A DNA stretch of 17,252 nt, taken from UHGV virus genome UHGV-0812067; one strand, given 5' to 3'. Below the pieces are notes generated by a model, which saw only the letters and a list, made by a program, of their open reading frames with translations, was not told the DNA's origin and made no database searches. Source of the DNA: a virus. The position numbers and the translations under genes were made by a program. Of this stretch, positions 1,902 to 17,083 are shown in pieces; within the stretch, counting starts at the first letter, position 1, and every line of letters begins with the position of its first letter.

Positions 1902-2977
1902 ACGACAATGTCACGCTACGGATAAATGGCCGGGAGTGGAATGGCTGGACATCGGTGCGCATCGGTGCCGGTATTGAACGGCTGGCGCGGGATTTCAGTG
2001 TGGAGATCACCCGCCAGTGGCCGGGAGATGAGGGTATTACCACGCTTCAGCCGCGCATTAAAAACGGTTCAAAAGTGGAGGTGCTGATTGGTGATGAGCT
2101 GGTGATCACCGGCTGGGTGGAGGCGACGCCCGTTCGTTACGATGCCCGTTCGGTCAGCACCGGTATTGCCGGACGCAGTCTGACCGCTGACTTGATTGAC
2201 TGTGCAGCCGAACCGACACAGTTTAACGGACGATCGCTGGTACAGATTGCGCAGGCGCTTGCTGCGCCTTTCGGCATTGAGGTGGTGAACAACGGTGCGC
2301 CGTCGGGTGTTATTCCTGATGTCCAGCCTGATCACGGTGAAACGGTGATTGAGGTAATCAACAAAATACTCGGTCAGCAGCAGGCACTGGCTTACGACGA
2401 CCCGCACGGCAGGCTGGTGATTGGCGGTATTGGCTCAACGCGGGCACATACTGCGCTGGTACTCGGGGAAAACATCCTTTCCTGCGATACGGAGAAGAGT
2501 ATCCGGGAGCGGTTTTCTGTTTACCAGGTGGCGGGGCAGCGTGCCGGAAACGACGATGATTTCGGTGAGGCCACCACCACCGCGCTGCGGGCCCGCACAG
2601 AGGACGCATTTATTGCCCGTTACCGTCCGATGTATATCAGGCAGACAGGGCAGGCTACGGGGGCAGGCTGTATTGCCCGTGCGGACTTTGAAGCCCGACA
2701 ACGGGCGGCGCGGACGGATGAAACCACCTATGTGGTGCAGGGCTGGCGACAGGGTAACGGTACGCTGTGGCAGCCCAACCAGCGGGTGATTGTCTTTGAT
2801 CCGGTCTGTGGTTTCGACAATACCGAACTGCTTGTTTCGGAAGTCACGTTTACTCAGGACCAGAACGGCACCCTGACGGAAATCCGTGTCGGCCCGCCTG
2901 ATGCTTATCTGCCTGAACCCGAAGCCCCCGGCGCGCGGAAAAAGAAAAAAGCCAGAGTACAGGAGGACCCGTTCTGA
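1898..2977 (+). CDS. Mu gp44 (P)-like baseplate hub protein
   Basis: 359-aa ORF coupled to neighbours by overlapping stop/start. Position and size match the Mu/P2 gpD-type hub in the conserved baseplate gene order. Confidence 0.75.
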   Translation: MNDNVTLRINGREWNGWTSVRIGAGIERLARDFSVEITRQWPGDEGITTLQPRIKNGSKVEVLIGDELVITGWVEATPVRYDARSVSTGIAGRSLTADLIDCAAEPTQFNGRSLVQIAQALAAPFGIEVVNNGAPSGVIPDVQPDHGETVIEVINKILGQQQALAYDDPHGRLVIGGIGSTRAHTALVLGENILSCDTEKSIRERFSVYQVAGQRAGNDDDFGEATTTALRARTEDAFIARYRPMYIRQTGQATGAGCIARADFEARQRAARTDETTYVVQGWRQGNGTLWQPNQRVIVFDPVCGFDNTELLVSEVTFTQDQNGTLTEIRVGPPDAYLPEPEAPGARKKKKARVQEDPF

Positions 2978-3525
2978 TGAAGGCGATTGAAACCATACAG
3001 CGACAACTCCTCGGCCTGATTGGGCGGGCGGTGGTGAAAAGCATCAGTGCCGCCACGAAATGTCAGACCGTGGATGTGTCCCTGATTGCCGGTGAACCCA
3101 AAGCCGGGGTTGAACATCTTGAACCCTACGGTTTTACCGCAAGGGCAAACAGCGGTGCGGAAGCGGTGGTGTTGTTTCCGGATGGCGACCGTTCTCATGC
3201 GGTGGTTGTTACGGTGTCGGACCGGCGCTACCGCCTGAAAGGGCTGCAGACGGGTGAGGTGGCTGTCTATGACGATCAGGGGCAGTCCGTGACGCTGGCC
3301 CGGGAGGGGATCGTGGTGGACGGTGCAGGTAAAACGATCACGTTTCGCAATGCGCCTAAGGCACGTTTTGAAATGGACCTGGAAGTGACCGGACAGGTGA
3401 AAGACCTGTGCGACTCCACCGGCACCACCATGTCAGCGATGCGGCTTGCCTATAACGGGCATCGTCACAGAGAGAACGGTCAGGGCAGTAACACCGACAA
3501 ACCTGATAAAGTGATGGAGGCATGA
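2977..3525 (+). CDS. Mu gp45 / gpV-like baseplate spike protein
   Basis: 182-aa ORF with AGGAGGA upstream (2961-2967) and start overlapping the upstream stop. Sequence and size are typical of phage baseplate assembly protein V. Confidence 0.75.
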   Translation: MKAIETIQRQLLGLIGRAVVKSISAATKCQTVDVSLIAGEPKAGVEHLEPYGFTARANSGAEAVVLFPDGDRSHAVVVTVSDRRYRLKGLQTGEVAVYDDQGQSVTLAREGIVVDGAGKTITFRNAPKARFEMDLEVTGQVKDLCDSTGTTMSAMRLAYNGHRHRENGQGSNTDKPDKVMEA

Positions 3526-5573: not shown

Positions 5574-6536
5574 ATGCATCGTATAGACACGAAAACCGCG
5601 CAGAAGGATAAGTTCGGCGCGGGTAAGAACGGTTTTACCCGTGGTAACCCCCAGACCGGCACACCTGCCACCGATCTGGATGATGACTACTTTGACATGT
5701 TGCAGGAAGAACTTTGTAGCGTGGTGGAGGCCTCCGGTGCCAGCCTGGAGAAAGGGCGGCATGACCAGCTGCTTACCGCACTTCGTGCGCTGCTGTTAAG
5801 CCGCAAGAATCCGTTTGGCGATATCAAATCGGACGGCACGGTGGAAACGGCTCTCGAAAACCTTGGTTTGGGAGATGCCAACGGATATGTGGGCCGAAAG
5901 GTTGCGGAAAAATGGATAACGACATCTGGGACATATACGCCTACACCGGGAACAAAAAAAATCAGGGTAACGATAATTGGCGGAGGCGGCGGCGGGGGCA
6001 GTGGGCAAACAAACTCTGCTGGATACGTATCTGCCGGGTCTGGTGGAGGTGCCGGTGGTGTGGCTCGTAAAACAATTGACGTTACCAGTGTTTCATCAGT
6101 GTCCGTAACCATCGGTTCAGGCGGTAATCCAGGTGTCTTCTCTTCAAATCAGCCTGGTGATGGTGGTACCACAAGTTTTGGCTCCTACATGACAGCTGGC
6201 GGGGGTGGCCGAGGAAATAACTGTGGCTCGGTAGCATTCGGTGTTACTCAGTTAATTGCGAACGGTGGCGGCGGGGTTGGTTCAGGAGGTGATATCAACA
6301 CCATCGGCGGCTCTGGCGGCCCGGCGATAATTCTGGGACAGGGGTACACCAGCGGCGGCGGTGGCAACTCAATAGTAGCTGGAGGTGGACAGCCTATTGC
6401 AACAACGTCATCAATGAGTGGAATTGATGGCTCATATGGTTCTGGTGGGTCAGGCGCTTACATTCTGGCCAGCGGTAGTGAAAAAAATGGCGGACGTGGT
6501 GGTGATGGCGTTTGTATCGTTGAGGAGTATGCATAA
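5574..6536 (+). CDS. tail fibre protein, expressed form in this orientation (constant N-terminus + glycine-rich variable C-terminus)
   Basis: ATG at 5574 with GGAG (5563-5566). N-terminus [40 protein letters not shown]... is the conserved phage tail-fibre N-terminal domain. From about residue 98 the protein is extremely Gly/Ser-rich. The inversion crossover site lies inside the gene at 5851-5876. Confidence 0.85.
5851..5876. repeat. invertase crossover site, left (gix/cix/pix/hix-like, 12-2-12 layout)
   Basis: ctctcgaaaacc tt ggtttgggagat: two half-sites resembling the invertase half-site consensus (..TC..AAACC) around a central TT. The 11 bp ttggtttggga (5863-5873) is the exact reverse complement of 7677-7687. 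Confidence 0.7.
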
Positions 6537-14310: not shown

Positions 14311-15228
14311 TTATCGCTTGGCTTCGCCGCCGAGAGAGGTTGTTAATCCGTTAATGAGAGAGATAAGCTCGCCGGTCATCAGAACAAAGTCAGCGTCGAA
14401 CCGCTGAGCCGCATCCTCACGGTCGATATCGTCGTTTTGTTCTGTAATCTCATTAGAGAACTTAAGGCGTTTGATGCTGCCGTCATCGCAAAGAACGAAC
14501 TGAATGCGCTGTTGCCAGTCGATAGACAGCTTTGTAACTACTTTGCCAGCTTCCAGATGCACATGAATTTCGTCACTGACCAGAGTCTGTTTTTTAAAGC
14601 GTCCAATACCGCCATCTTCAAGAATAGCTTTCAGTTCGGCTTCATCACCCAGGCCAAAGCCAGCAGGCGCACTACCGGAACGAACCCATTCGGTCATAGT
14701 TAGTTCGATCGGCGTTTCCATAGTCAGCGGTACCACCGGGAGAGAACCGAGAGTTTTACGAAGCAGGGCCAGTGAGTCTTCGGCACGTTTAGCGCTGGCT
14801 GCATCAACCATGATCAGACCGTCGGTGACGTTGATCCACAAACTAACAGTCGAGTTTTTGGAGAACGCCCGAGGAAGCAGGGAGTGCAACACTTCATCAC
14901 GCAGCGAATCTTTCTCAGTTTTTTTGAGGCGACGCCCCTGATCGGATTCCAGACGCGACACACGCTTGCGCAGTTCTTCAGCAATGACAGGAGATGGCAG
15001 TATTTTTTCTTCCCGGCGAATAACCAACAACACTTGATTATTGACAGTGTGATGCAAGCGATCTGACAGCTGACCAAGTGGTGATACCCAACCGGTTTTT
15101 GCCATATCCTGGCTACCGCATGGAGTGAAGCGAAATAGTTCAAGCTGCTGTTCCAGCTCTTCCTGGTTGATGGTGAAATCGCGACTAATGCGATACACCA
15201 ACATATTTTTGAAAAACGGATTGTTCAT
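14311..15228 (-). CDS. rdgC: RdgC-family recombination-associated protein, phage-encoded homologue
   Basis: 305 aa, [18 protein letters not shown]...[19 protein letters not shown]...KILPSPVI...[22 protein letters not shown]...LGSLPVVPL...RLKF..., collinear with E. coli RdgC along its whole length. Confidence 0.9.
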
Positions 15229-15693
15229 TCTCGGTTCCTCAACGCCTCTGCACCGGCGCTAAAAAGTTAGTTTCTCCATACACAACAGAGAAGGGCACCT
15301 GCATTGGTCGGCGGCTTGCAGAGACCGCTTTCTTTTTGCCCGGGTGGATTGGGTTATGAGCCCGTCGTCCGGTGATGCTCTTCTCTGTTTTGTAAAAAGG
15401 ACGGTACCAGCCGGAAGCAAGGGTACAAACTGGTACCGCCAGGACTACACACAGCATAAAGTTGTGGTGCCGGGTGCCTCCCGGTGCCTGGCGAAGGTTG
15501 CACACCAGGCGGGTGGGTATCCACAGAAGGTCGACTGTCAGCCTCAACCTTAACCCGCGTGCGCTGAGCCGCATTCACCACAACGCTAAGGATTCTCTCT
15601 GGTTGAAAATACTTAGCTGTTATGTGCCTGTCTTTTCACCACTTCAGGCTCGGTGGTATCCTTTTAAGCCCGTATACATAAAAGGAAAATCAA

Positions 15694-15939
15694 ATGACTT
15701 TTGATGAAAAAGAACTTGATAATGCAATTAATAAAATCATCGTAACGTCGCTCTTTTCCTGTCTCAGCGACACTCAGCAGAAACAGTTCTACGAATCGGC
15801 TTTCAACATGATCGAGCGTTGTTGTTTCTGCGATGCCGACGAGTTACCTGAAAAAATCAGGAAACAGTTGGCTGATGCTCTTCGAGTGCGACTTTCTGAC
15901 CAATTTTCTGAAATGTGCTCTCCGAATTTGGACAAATAG
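15694..15939 (+). CDS. hypothetical 81-aa protein
   Basis: ATG at 15694 with AAGGA 7 nt upstream. Sequence is protein-like and acidic/helical. It overlaps the 3' end of a convergent minus-strand ORF. Confidence 0.45.
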   Translation: MTFDEKELDNAINKIIVTSLFSCLSDTQQKQFYESAFNMIERCCFCDADELPEKIRKQLADALRVRLSDQFSEMCSPNLDK

Positions 15940-16132
15940 AAAAAGGCCATTTCCATTCAGGGTCTGATGGAAATACTTCAGCCTGTTCCAAAGCACGGCG
16001 TAAAGAGAATACAACTCCAGCCATAATCTGATGTTTCCCATTGGTCCAGCTATCGCTGCTCTGATCTACAGGAGCGGCTATGTCGTATGACCAAACGACT
16101 TCACCACTATTGTTTAAAATCTGGACTTTCAT
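15857..16132 (-). CDS. hypothetical 91-aa ORF, first ORF downstream of the putative leftward early promoter
   Basis: ATG at 16132 with GGAGG 12 nt upstream (long spacer). The C-terminal third overlaps the + ORF and contains a hairpin (15949-15974), so the true extent is uncertain. Confidence 0.3.
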   Translation of the reverse strand: MKVQILNNSGEVVWSYDIAAPVDQSSDSWTNGKHQIMAGVVFSLRRALEQAEVFPSDPEWKWPFSICPNSESTFQKIGQKVALEEHQPTVS

Positions 16133-16249
16133 TTTGTTCTTTAACCTCCAGATACGGGCGTTTAATTGCCCCGCCGAACAGCTCTTTTCCGCAATAGCTG
16201 CAATGTCTTTCGCGCATCAGCCTGCGCATTCACCACAACTCTAAAAACA

Positions 16250-16303
16250 AATGTAGGACATCCAACATGTGAGTGTCAAGAGTTTATGTTGGTTATCCTA
16301 CAT
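16250..16303 (-). promoter_or_regulatory. putative leftward early promoter (PL-like) with two 18-bp operators
   Basis: On the minus strand: TTGACA (complement of 16274-16279), 18-bp spacer, TACATT (complement of 16250-16255). Operator atgtaggacatccaacat (16251-16268) overlaps the spacer and -10; a second operator atgttggttatcctacat (16286-16303) lies upstream. Confidence 0.6.
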
Positions 16304-16318
16304 AAAAAGATAGGCTCA

Positions 16319-16346
16319 TAAAAAAACCGGGGATACCCCGGTTTTG
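16319..16346 (-). terminator. rho-independent terminator downstream of the repressor gene (bidirectional shape)
   Basis: ccgggg-ata-ccccgg stem (16327-16341), flanked by an A7 run (16320-16326, a U-tract on the minus strand) and TTTT (16342-16345) on the plus strand. Confidence 0.8.
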
Positions 16347-16365: not shown

Positions 16366-17019
16366 TCAAAAATCCATTATTACTTGTTTGACAAGACCAA
16401 CTATTCTGCAGTTCTCACCGCATTCAATAGTTTTATAGTTAGGATTTAGTGGGACGAGATACCTGTTCGGCCAGTCCTCAACAAATTTTTTGAGTGTCGC
16501 TTCTTGCCCACCATTGATATGGGCAACAACGATTTTTCCGTTAATACACTCTGTATCAATAATATCTGGCTCTACGATAACGATAGAACCTTCTGGTATC
16601 GATGGTGAGCCGAGGGGATTGGTCATTGAATCACCACGGACCCGTAGTGCAAATGCCATTTCTGATACAAGGGCGGTAGTATAAACCCACTCTTCAGCAT
16701 CTTCTTTCCTGACACCAGGCTCCGTCATTGTCCATGAACCCGCCTGAACCCACGAGATGAGGGGGACTTTTTTAACTGCGAATATTTCAGGTTTTAGATT
16801 TATCTTTGGTTCAGGCGAGCCTTTTCCGCTAACAAGCCACAGAGGATCGCATTTAAGTGCGTTGGCTAGGGCTTGAAGGTTGGCTCCATTTGGTTGGTAG
16901 TCGTCCTTTTCCCATCCAGTAACCGTGACACGGTTCACACCAGTCAAATCAGCCAGTGCTTGTTGTGTCAGGTTCAGTTCTTTTCGCCTTTGGCGAATAC
17001 GATCACTCATGTTCATCAT
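16366..17019 (-). CDS. CI-like phage repressor (N-terminal HTH + C-terminal LexA/S24-type autocleavage domain)
   Basis: 217 aa. N-terminal HTH (RIRQRRKELNLTQQALADLTGVNRVTVTGWEKD); C-terminal S24 peptidase features (...ALRVRGDSMTNP... with a downstream Lys). No strong SD, as is common for repressor genes. Confidence 0.9.
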   Translation of the reverse strand: MMNMSDRIRQRRKELNLTQQALADLTGVNRVTVTGWEKDDYQPNGANLQALANALKCDPLWLVSGKGSPEPKINLKPEIFAVKKVPLISWVQAGSWTMTEPGVRKEDAEEWVYTTALVSEMAFALRVRGDSMTNPLGSPSIPEGSIVIVEPDIIDTECINGKIVVAHINGGQEATLKKFVEDWPNRYLVPLNPNYKTIECGENCRIVGLVKQVIMDF

Positions 17020-17083
17020 GTAGGCAATCCTACCACATGCCCATGTAGGATTCTTGACATTGGTATGTTGGATATCCTACATT
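17018..17083 (+). promoter_or_regulatory. rightward operator/promoter region (OR/PR-like) between the repressor and Cro-like genes
   Basis: TTGACA (17054-17059), 18-bp spacer, TACATT (17078-17083). Operator atgttggatatcctacat (17065-17082) is 17/18 identical to the left operator. A related site atgtaggcaatcctacca (17018-17035) overlaps the repressor start codon, and there is a half-site atgtaggat (17043-17051). Confidence 0.65.

What the first reader, a model, noticed from the sequence alone, without database searches (positions are those of the whole stretch)
15229..15693. 465-bp GC-rich gap with no credible ORF inside the leftward early transcription unit
Between the RdgC start and the small ORFs next to the left promoter lies a GC-rich stretch where all six frames give only short, Pro/Arg/Gly-rich, non-protein-like ORFs. 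It contains local repeats (cgggtgcct ccc ggtgcctgg at about 15470-15492; ggtacc...ggtacc at about 15403-15443) and an inverted repeat gcctgg...ccaggc (about 15487-15511). Candidates are a structured non-coding RNA, an antitermination or terminator region of the early transcript, or a decayed gene.
Basis: seen in the sequence. Interest (0 to 1): 0.4.

Follow-up and report, generated by a model that had tools for sequence, protein, structure and literature searches.

The report
Prophage STnc100-like small RNA locus
The "empty" 465-bp stretch is not a dead gene: on the minus strand it carries a divergent copy of a known prophage small-RNA family (STnc100/PasD), that RNA's terminator, and a second conserved folded RNA leader in front of rdgC that no RNA database lists.

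Summary
Window 15229-15693 has no conserved ORF.

Three conserved modules fill the gap:
1. A 124-nt pseudoknotted core (15584-15461). It matches Rfam STnc100 at 43.1 bits, below the gathering score of 47, with E=1.2e-7. It shares every conserved feature of that family.
2. An intrinsic terminator (15440-15392).
3. A 114-nt three-way-junction element (15393-15280). It is absent from Rfam. One arm tip is 14/14 identical to the initiator tRNA-fMet anticodon stem-loop.

The longest antisense ORF hits a PHROG, but relatives carry frameshifts and stop codons in it.

Related STnc100/PasD RNAs are transcribed in EHEC/EPEC, and several are reported Hfq- or CsrA-bound. Most family copies are separate genes in phage late regions. 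The SfV/ST64B/P1 subgroup found here has no promoter of its own and sits inside repressor-controlled early operons.

Best reading: an sRNA embedded in the operon, in the way DicF is, released by termination after prophage induction. The terminator also attenuates rdgC expression. The trans-acting function is inferred, not shown. This is a new variant of a known kind, of moderate interest.

The parts
16250..16279 (-). pL, the early leftward promoter (-35 TTGACA, 18-nt spacer, -10 TACATT). It is overlapped by the operator palindromes at 16251-16268 and 16286-16303. The inferred transcription start is about 16243.
   Evidence: Promoter scan. It is a mirror image of pR at 17054-17083. Inverted repeat I2.
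16211..16244 (-). Short copy of the core's 5' part at the very start of the pL transcript: UUAGAGUUGUGGUGAAU followed by the hairpin GCGCA-GGCUGA-UGCGC.
   Evidence: 20-nt direct repeat D2, 95% identical to 15589-15570. Second-best hit of my own covariance model (9.6 bits, E=0.22). P1-like phages carry the same short form with a compensatory change in the hairpin, GCACA...UGUGC.
15620..15661 (-). Degenerate fragment resembling part of the core (GGAUACCACCGAGCCUGAAGUGGUGAAA). It is probably a relic of a partial duplication.
   Evidence: Direct repeat D3 (15640-15661 against 15501-15522, 73%). GTGGTGAAA at 15634-15642. Inference only.
15461..15584 (-). STnc100-like core. Its parts are: closing helix GUUGUGGUG (15584-15576) with CACCACAAC (15469-15461); the conserved GGUGAAU; hairpin 1 (15572-15557); pseudoknot strand AAGGUUG (15551-15545) pairing with CAACCUU (15500-15494) in the loop of hairpin 3 (15510-15486); hairpin 4, CCGGG-AGGCA-CCCGG (15484-15470).
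   Evidence: Rfam RF02076 match at 15392-15614 (-), 43.1 bits, E=1.2e-7. Covariation in the closing helix and hairpin 1 across 44 sequences. P1 has GUUGCGGUG/CACCGCAAC. Pseudoknot own-versus-cross test. Coordinates.
15441..15460 (-). Linker UUUAUGCUGUGUGUAGUCCU, predicted single-stranded, between the core and the terminator. It is a candidate seed region.
   Evidence: Minimum-free-energy fold. This segment varies between family members. Its role is inferred.
15392..15440 (-). Intrinsic terminator: stem GGCGGUACCAG / CUGGUACCGUC, a loop of about 19 nt, then CUUUUUAC.
   Evidence: It corresponds to the 3' hairpin of the Rfam model. The module 15385-15441 is 93-95% identical in mEp460, cdtI and Stx2c phages that lack the core, so it is mosaic. 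The simple terminator scan missed it because its loop exceeds 8 nt.
15280..15393 (-). Second structured element ('element 3'), a three-way junction. It has an outer stem of about 19 bp. Arm A is tipped by ACGGGCUCAUAACCCAAUCC (15365-15346), which resembles the initiator tRNA anticodon stem-loop. Arm B is variable (15328-15311).
   Evidence: Inverted repeat I1. Fold z=-2.95. Consensus structure of 33 pairs, 8 with compensatory changes; 96.5% of cells paired against 35-49% in the slid controls. No Rfam hit at E<=10. tRNA-fMet sequence verified.
15226..15259 (-). Small hairpin GCGCC-GGUGCAGA-GGCGU (15259-15242), then the rdgC ribosome-binding site GAGGAA and the ATG (15240-15226).
   Evidence: An equivalent hairpin (ggcggtggcagccgcc) follows element 3 in relatives.
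14311..15228 (-). rdgC, the first gene downstream of the RNA modules.
   Evidence: PF04381, E=8e-116. phrog_724.

Best explanation
The gap is the non-coding leader of the early leftward (pL) operon of an SfV-like prophage. On the minus strand it encodes a divergent member of the STnc100/PasD prophage sRNA family.

Shown:
- A 124-nt core with a closing helix, four hairpins and a pseudoknot.
- A linker of about 20 nt and an intrinsic terminator.
- A second conserved structured element just upstream of the rdgC ribosome-binding site.

Inferred mechanism:
- In the lysogen, cI represses pL and the RNA is silent.
- On induction or infection, pL transcription runs through the small ORF at 15857-16132 into the core.
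- A fraction of polymerases stop at the terminator (15440-15392). This releases an sRNA of about 150-200 nt whose 5' end is made by processing, as happens for the operon-embedded DicF.
- The rest read through, so the terminator also attenuates rdgC and the genes beyond it.
- The released RNA then acts in trans, like the family members reported to be Hfq- or CsrA-bound. It could do so by base-pairing through its variable single-stranded segment, by titrating a protein through its conserved fold, or both.
- On read-through transcripts, element 3 acts as a processing or stability signal for the rdgC mRNA. Its outer stem of about 19 bp looks like an RNase III substrate.
For: Identity:
- Rfam STnc100 full-length match, E=1.2e-7.
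- The window has the family's architecture: GGUGAAU, hairpin 1, the 21-nt CACCGGGAGGCACCCGGCACC, a closing helix and a 3' terminator. The same architecture is seen in canonical 933W (208 bits) and in 74 distinct cores from viral contigs.
- Closing-helix covariation, for example GC 18 against AU 17 at one pair, plus the P1 compensatory pair.
- Pseudoknot: mean own score 17.1 against 11.9 for non-self pairs; a score of 16 or more in 72% against 9%; 31 distinct pairing sequences.

Not coding.

The family is a real, expressed RNA:
- 11 copies are transcribed in EDL933 and one is confirmed by Northern blot (PMC5331693).
- The canonical copy overlaps the Hfq-binding sRNA EcOnc27/sRNA103 (PMC12711010).
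- PasD stability depends on Hfq (PMC8550237).
- PasD2 is in the most abundant CsrA chimera (bioRxiv 10.64898/2026.08.12.744399).

Operon-embedded:
- None of 29 distinct cores of the SfV/ST64B/P1 subgroup has a sigma-70 promoter scoring at least 9/12 directly upstream. Among the other cores, 18 of 75 do.
- In SfV, ST64B, mEp460_4F5, phiES15 and 118970_sal3 the element always lies between the repressor gene and the first early-left genes, on the same strand.
- P1 carries it inside the C1-controlled ban operon, alongside a 'dicF-like region'.

Termination works after the core: 98 of 104 distinct copies have a terminator-like hairpin within 260 nt.
Against: - The Rfam score is below the gathering threshold (43.1 against 47).
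- There are no expression data for this subgroup, no mapped 5' end, and no recognisable processing site.
- The terminator has a large loop and a short U-tract, so its efficiency is unknown.
- No convincing target was found in the window.
- The elaborate conserved fold and pseudoknot are unusual for a plain Hfq seed-type sRNA.
- The P1 copy has no terminator and abuts the tciA start codon. That fits a cis-acting role at least as well.
- Hfq or CsrA binding was shown only for distant relatives.
Confidence: 0.6

Rival explanations
1. The element is a purely cis-acting leader. The core and/or element 3 would modify transcription or translation of the downstream early-left genes. Possible modes are a put-like RNA that makes RNA polymerase resistant to terminators, a ligand- or protein-responsive attenuator that uses the terminator at 15440-15392, or a translational operator.
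For: - The layout promoter, structured RNA, terminator, genes is that of HK022 pL-putL-tL1. These phages have no N-like protein; the ORF next to pL is not arginine-rich.
- The 5' motif is repeated at the very start of the pL transcript.
- In P1 the core sits about 35 nt before the tciA ATG with no terminator.
- Both RNA modules recur in the two places where lambdoid phages depend on antitermination: the early-left leader and the region between Q and the lysis genes.
Against: - I saw no sequence resemblance to HK022 putL or putR when reading them; no formal alignment was made.
- Free-standing copies have their own strong promoters and terminators just upstream of holin genes, and EDL933 copies give discrete RNAs of 160-210 nt. 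So the core does not abolish termination.
- Terminator modules are exchanged independently of the core, which argues against a coupled aptamer and expression platform.
Confidence: 0.2
2. The modules are tRNA-mimicking elements. Element 3 (tip resembling the initiator tRNA anticodon arm) and possibly the core (hairpin 4 stacked on the closing helix, with a 3' CCCGGCACCA resembling a tRNA acceptor end) would serve as processing signals for tRNA-maturation enzymes. Alternatively they would act as decoys for an enzyme that targets tRNA, such as an anticodon nuclease (my suggestion from memory: VapC/MvpT, which cleaves tRNA-fMet).
For: - 14/14 identity of CGGGCUCAUAACCC to tRNA-fMet.
- UCAU flanked by GGG and CCC (UCC in the Klebsiella phage GZ7) is kept in SfV, ST64B, P1, L022 and GZ7, while the surrounding stems covary.
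- Sister elements in P1-like phages and phiNP carry hairpins resembling T-arms instead, and start directly at a tRNA 3' end or at a degenerate tRNA 3' fragment.
- In GZ7 the element starts at the end of tRNA-Arg.
Against: - ARAGORN finds no tRNA in any of these elements.
- The anticodon-like stem has only 3 bp.
- The homologue set was largely collected with a pattern that fixes this motif, so its conservation is partly circular.
- No literature support was found.
- The decoy idea rests on my memory of VapC specificity.
Confidence: 0.12
3. The region is a protein-coding or decayed gene. Candidates are the 69-aa plus-strand ORF at 15344-15553 (phrog_3651) and the 111-aa minus-strand ORF.
For: - PHROG hit at E=1.5e-46.
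- 'Hypothetical protein' is annotated over the region in several phage and RefSeq records.
Against: - Frameshifting indels and stop codons in relatives, and no excess of third-position substitutions.
- No Pfam family.
- The translation is rich in Pro, Arg, Gly and Cys.
- Variation fits RNA helices instead.
- The PHROG match is explained by DNA conservation of over-called ORFs.
Confidence: 0.03

Closest known systems
STnc100 (Rfam RF02076), which overlaps EcOnc27/sRNA103 of EHEC, for example the copy 75 nt downstream of stxB2 in phage 933W
   Same: Same core architecture: GGUGAAU, hairpin 1, the conserved CACCGGGAGGCACCCGGCACC hairpin, a closing helix, a 3' terminator and a pseudoknot. It is encoded on lambdoid prophages in enterobacteria and is a non-coding RNA of about 200 nt.
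   Different: - Scores 43 bits here against 208 for the canonical copy.
- Hairpin 1 is GCGGCUCAGCGCACGC instead of CCCCC..GGGG.
- It lies in the cI-repressed early-left operon rather than between Q and the lysis genes.
- It has no promoter of its own.
- It travels with element 3.
PasD1/PasD2 of EPEC E2348/69
   Same: Zhu et al. (bioRxiv 10.64898/2026.05.13.724894) report PasD as a structural relative of STnc100. It is prophage-encoded, its stability depends on Hfq, and its seed regions differ between relatives.
   Different: I did not have the PasD sequence, so direct similarity was not tested. PasD lies next to Q and LpxR in the late region. CsrA association is known only for PasD2.
DicF of the Qin prophage (dicB operon), and the 'dicF-like region' of the P1 ban operon
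   Same: An sRNA embedded in a repressor-controlled early operon upstream of kil/dicB-type genes, made by processing plus an intrinsic terminator. It occupies the same genomic slot, and P1 carries both.
   Different: No homology. The Rfam DicF match covers only the terminator hairpin, at 15.7 bits against 48. DicF is 53 nt long and has no complex fold.
HK022 putL/putR processive antiterminator RNAs
   Same: A structured RNA just downstream of an early promoter and upstream of the first terminator, in a lambdoid phage that lacks N.
   Different: No sequence resemblance. put consists of two stem-loops with no pseudoknot. Terminators evidently function after free-standing STnc100 copies.
Lambda 6S RNA and StxS (short transcripts from pR' to tR')
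   Same: Short prophage transcripts defined by a promoter and an early terminator in front of a long operon. StxS shows that such RNAs can act in trans. This rests on my own knowledge of Sy et al. 2020, which I did not read here.
   Different: These are made from the late promoter in lysogens. The element here lies behind pL, and about 650 nt downstream of it.

Membership tests
STnc100 (RF02076) | Score at or above Rfam's gathering threshold (47 bits) | tested here: not met
   43.1 bits, so no hit in the gathering scan. The whole SfV/ST64B/P1 subgroup scores 33-43 bits.
STnc100 (RF02076) | Statistically significant full-length match to the covariance model | tested here: met
   E=1.2e-7, model positions 1-206 of 206, minus strand 15614-15392.
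STnc100 (RF02076) | Conserved sequence blocks: GGUGAAU at the 5' side and CACCGGGAGGCACCCGGCACC at the 3' side of the core | tested here: met
   Both are present exactly.
STnc100 (RF02076) | Long-range closing helix and hairpin 1, supported by covariation | tested here: met
   9-bp helix, 15584-15576 with 15469-15461. Family covariation. Compensatory change in P1.
STnc100 (RF02076) | 3' Rho-independent terminator | tested here: met
   15440-15392. The loop is large and the U-tract is only 5 nt.
STnc100 (RF02076) | Independent sRNA gene with its own promoter | tested here: not met
   The best candidate scores 6/12 (CAGCTA-16-GAGAAT). None of the 29 subgroup copies has a promoter scoring at least 9/12.
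STnc100 (RF02076) | Transcribed and Hfq-bound in vivo | not testable with these tools
   Known only for relatives.
HK022 put RNA | Sequence or structure resemblance to putL/putR (two stem-loops) | tested here: not met
   HK022 pL and pR leaders were read directly. No shared motif was seen; no formal alignment was made.
HK022 put RNA | Confers terminator read-through in cis | tested here: inconclusive
   Only indirect evidence: free-standing copies end at terminators and give short RNAs. No assay was possible.
DicF (RF00039) | Match to the covariance model | tested here: not met
   15.7 bits against 48, E=2.7, terminator hairpin only.
tRNA / tRNA-like gene | Cloverleaf detectable by ARAGORN or Rfam | tested here: not met
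   No tRNA in the window or in 9 related loci. No Rfam tRNA hit at E<=10. Only a 14-nt identity to the tRNA-fMet anticodon arm.
Protein-coding gene or pseudogene | Reading frame conserved in diverged relatives, with a codon-position bias in substitutions | tested here: not met
   Frameshifts, stop codons and a flat 10/14/11 distribution. No Pfam family.

The most novel reading that the evidence does not exclude
Under this reading the gap holds two RNA features that have not been described.

(a) Element 3 (15393-15280) would be a new class of phage leader RNA. It is a covarying three-way junction whose invariant tip copies the initiator tRNA anticodon arm. Its sister elements display hairpins resembling T-arms and begin exactly at tRNA 3' ends or at terminator U-tracts. 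It would work by tRNA mimicry, either as a processing signal or as a decoy for an enzyme that targets tRNA-fMet.

(b) The STnc100/PasD core would be a compact pseudoknotted domain that binds a protein, rather than a simple seed-type sRNA. That would reframe a multicopy RNA family of pathogenic E. coli that has been linked to disease outcome.
Probability: 0.2. Interest if true: 0.7.

Novelty: new variant of a known kind. Interest (0 to 1): 0.45.

Why it matters
STnc100/PasD RNAs are multicopy and transcribed in EHEC/EPEC, and several are reported Hfq- or CsrA-bound. One study ties sequence variants in the canonical copy to HUS risk (PMC12711010). Their function is still unknown.

This locus shows three things about the family:
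- It has a divergent subgroup that standard annotation misses, because it scores below Rfam's gathering threshold. Part of this locus has a close match in about half of complete E. coli genomes, and the subgroup also occurs in Shigella, Salmonella, Cronobacter and P1-like phages.
- That subgroup is wired differently. It is embedded in repressor-controlled early operons, so it would be made only on induction or infection.
- The core has a conserved pseudoknot, which any mechanistic model has to accommodate.

The companion element, with its initiator-tRNA-like tip, is a candidate new RNA motif. It also explains why several phage annotations carry spurious 'hypothetical proteins' at this position.

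Tried and rejected
- Rfam at gathering thresholds found nothing. The family appeared only with E-value thresholds.
- Decayed or real gene: rejected.
- put-like antiterminator: the HK022 put sites show no resemblance, and terminators function after free-standing copies.
- Own promoter for the window copy: none is credible.
- 933W pR' compared with the sequence upstream of the canonical STnc100: no resemblance on inspection.
- tRNA gene or pseudogene: ARAGORN was negative.
- Targets of the linker and loops within the window: nothing better than shuffled controls, apart from the trivial antisense match.
- Literature on mimics or decoys of the initiator tRNA anticodon arm in phages: nothing relevant. 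Literature on sRNAs of ST64B: nothing specific.
- The terminator annotated in the SfV record maps to window 15674-15706, not to the hairpin identified here.
- My covariance model R1 contains the window sequence, so its 73-bit hit is not independent evidence.
- The viral-contig sets were fetched with patterns that fix the most conserved motifs. Invariance of those motifs within the sets is therefore circular. Only the flanking helices and the homologues found by BLAST are informative.
- Not used: genome contigs and metagenome scans, and protein structure tools (irrelevant here).

Full report
**Setting.** The window is an SfV-like lambdoid prophage. Window 15338-15800 is 99.4% identical to phage SfV and up to 99.8% identical to prophages in E. 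coli. Part of the query 15100-15800 matches in 2781 of 5426 complete E. coli genomes. The repressor gene cI lies at 16366-17019 (-). It is followed by a terminator palindrome at 16323-16345. Then come two mirror-image promoters that share the same operator palindrome: pL at 16279-16250 (-) and pR at 17054-17083 (+). Transcription from pL runs leftward through a 91-aa ORF (15857-16132, phrog_3195), across the gap, and into rdgC (14311-15228; PF04381, E=8e-116).

**The observation.** The gap is real. Its GC content is only slightly raised: 0.529 against 0.494 for the window, and 0.578 for the central 260 nt. Mechanical ORFs of up to 111 aa exist, but none has a Pfam family. The plus-strand 69-aa ORF (15344-15553) hits phrog_3651. 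In relatives, however, it carries 5- and 3-nt indels (mEp460_4F5) or stop codons (ST64B, 118970_sal3, phiES15). Its substitutions fall 10/14/11 on the three codon positions. It is therefore an over-called ORF lying on conserved non-coding DNA.

**Module 1: an STnc100-family RNA.** A permissive Rfam scan matched STnc100 (RF02076) over its full length on the minus strand at 15614-15392. The score is 43.1 bits, just under the gathering score of 47, with E=1.2e-7. That gap explains why the default scan and public annotation show nothing here.

- The core (15584-15461) has the family's hallmarks: a long-range closing helix (GUUGUGGUG/CACCACAAC), the unpaired GGUGAAU, hairpin 1, hairpin 3, and the conserved hairpin CCGGG-AGGCA-CCCGG flowing into the 3' strand of the closing helix.
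- A pattern scan of viral contigs returned 120 loci holding 74 distinct cores.
- In an alignment of 44 representatives, the outer pairs of the closing helix and hairpin 1 covary. For example, one pair is GC in 18 sequences and AU in 17.
- Phage P1, found by BLAST and not by the pattern, has GUUGCGGUG/CACCGCAAC.
- I also found a pseudoknot. The segment after hairpin 1 (AAGGUUG in the window) is complementary to the loop of hairpin 3 (CAACCUU). The same relationship holds in all 43 representatives, through 31 different pairing sequences. The mean own score is 17.1 against 11.9 for non-self combinations, and a score of 16 or more occurs in 72% against 9%.
- The only family study I could read used nested-only folding and does not mention a pseudoknot.

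**Module 2: the terminator.** Twenty nucleotides after the core lies GGCGGUACCAG-(loop)-CUGGUACCGUC-CUUUUUAC (15440-15392). It matches the 3' hairpin of the Rfam model. This 57-nt module is 93-95% identical in phages that lack the core (mEp460, cdtI, Stx2c phages), whereas ST64B pairs the core with a different terminator. The core and the terminator are therefore exchangeable parts.

**Module 3: an undescribed structured element.** It starts directly at the terminator's U-tract and occupies 15393-15280.

- It folds into a three-way junction (z=-2.95).
- Across 14 diverged homologues the consensus has 33 pairs, 8 of them with compensatory double changes. 96.5% of cells are paired, against 35-49% when the partners are slid. 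None of 500 shuffles reached the observed covariation.
- It has no Rfam match even at E<=10.
- The tip of arm A, ACGGGCUCAUAACCCAAUCC, contains 14 consecutive nucleotides identical to the anticodon stem-loop of E. coli initiator tRNA-fMet. I verified that tRNA sequence against all 5426 genomes.
- UCAU flanked by GGG and CCC persists in SfV, ST64B, P1 and L022, and with UCC in place of CCC in a Klebsiella phage, while the surrounding stems differ entirely.
- In P1-like phages and in L022 the element sits immediately upstream of the STnc100-like core instead of downstream.
- In P1-like phages and phiNP, sister elements carry hairpins resembling T-arms. One starts exactly at the 3' end of a tRNA and another at a degenerate tRNA 3' fragment.
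- No true tRNA is detectable.

**Family context.** I clustered the neighbouring ORFs of 131 copies.

- 91 copies lie between Q antiterminators (PF03589, PF06530) and holin or lysozyme genes.
- 15 copies lie downstream of a cI-like repressor.
- The remaining 25 could not be classified.

Late-region copies can be free-standing genes. L012 has two in tandem, each with a near-consensus sigma-70 promoter whose -10 element ends 8 nt before GGUGAAU, and each with its own terminator. Both lie downstream of the phage's probable pR'/tR'.

The subgroup with the window's type of hairpin 1 (SfV, ST64B, 118970_sal3, phiES15, mEp460_4F5, P1 and several contigs) scores 33-43 bits in Rfam. None of its 29 distinct copies has a good promoter in position, against 18 of 75 for the rest. 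It lies inside repressor-controlled operons.

In the window, a 34-nt short form of the 5' motif also sits at the very start of the pL transcript (16244-16211). P1-like phages have the same short form, with a compensatory change in its hairpin.

**What is known about relatives.**
- The canonical STnc100 overlaps the Hfq-bound sRNA EcOnc27/sRNA103. Its overexpression raised fimZ and espA transcript levels (PMC12711010).
- EDL933 has 11 transcribed copies, one confirmed by Northern blot (PMC5331693).
- PasD1 and PasD2 are reported as structural relatives. Their stability depends on Hfq (bioRxiv 10.64898/2026.05.13.724894; PMC8550237).
- PasD2 forms the most abundant CsrA-bound chimera in EPEC (bioRxiv 10.64898/2026.08.12.744399).
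- No function has been established for the family.

**Mechanism.** Shown here: the RNA architecture, its conservation, its non-coding nature, its position behind pL, and the absence of a promoter of its own.

Inferred: on derepression of pL, part of the transcription terminates at 15440-15392. This releases an sRNA whose 5' end is produced by processing, as in the DicF paradigm. That RNA would act in trans with Hfq and/or CsrA. Read-through transcripts carry element 3 as a processing or stability signal ahead of rdgC.

A put-like cis antiterminator is disfavoured. Free-standing copies are followed by terminator-like hairpins just before lysis genes and give short RNAs, and there is no resemblance to HK022 put. 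The P1 copy has no terminator and lies about 35 nt before the tciA start codon, which keeps a cis role alive.

**Verdict.** This is a real, conserved non-coding locus. It is a sub-threshold, differently wired variant of a known prophage sRNA family, accompanied by a structured leader element that has not been described. Interest is moderate. The tRNA-mimicry and pseudoknot observations are the parts that could grow.

Noticed in passing
window 15694-15939 (+) and 15857-16132 (-): Two small ORFs, each with its own PHROG (phrog_3311 and phrog_3195), converge and overlap by 83 bp between pL and the RNA core. This slot is variable in relatives: a 242-aa antisense ORF in PhiR29_1, a 123-aa same-strand ORF in mEp460_4F5, and nothing annotated in ST64B. 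I did not establish which of the two is expressed.
   Followed up: partly
window 15338 (mosaic junction inside element 3): Identity to SfV-type phages stops at 15338, in the middle of element 3. The left half (arm B plus the 3' arm) is of the type seen in contigs L134, L175 and L209, yet the hybrid outer stem still pairs with a single mismatch. No complete E. coli RefSeq genome covers 80% or more of 15100-15800.
   Followed up: partly
L003 (phage P1, AF234172) 1896-2465: The P1 CDSs plp and upl ('putative lipoprotein' and 'unknown function') are annotated antisense to a unit made of element 3 plus the short form of the core. These ORFs may be worth re-examining.
   Followed up: no
L001 (SfV) 5906-6094, beyond the right end of the window: SfV and ST64B carry isrK (64 bits) and C4 antisense RNA (80-82 bits) back to back in the pR operon. 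These phages are therefore unusually rich in structured RNAs in both early operons.
   Followed up: no
L005 (933W) 2501-2760: AsxR (88 bits) lies on the opposite strand immediately after the terminator of the canonical STnc100. The two sRNA genes converge.
   Followed up: no
L236 (Citrobacter phage phiNP) 790-1670 and L004 (ST64B) 2650-3360: The pL leaders of these phages are 700-880 nt long with no annotated gene. They contain several further conserved, hairpin-rich blocks, including hairpins resembling tRNA T-arms and tRNA 3'-end fragments.
   Followed up: no
window 16323-16345: A perfect 10-bp palindrome, AAAACCGGGG-ATA-CCCCGGTTTT, with A/T runs on both sides, lies between the end of cI and pL. 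It looks like a bidirectional terminator that insulates cI from the pL operon. The weak Rfam hit 'Termite-leu' at this position (21.7 bits against 51) is spurious.
   Followed up: partly
L022, L015, L012, L123, L075 (viral contigs): Several phage contigs carry two or three STnc100-type cores 100-500 nt apart, each with its own promoter and/or terminator. Multicopy arrays therefore arise within single phages, not only through polylysogeny.
   Followed up: partly
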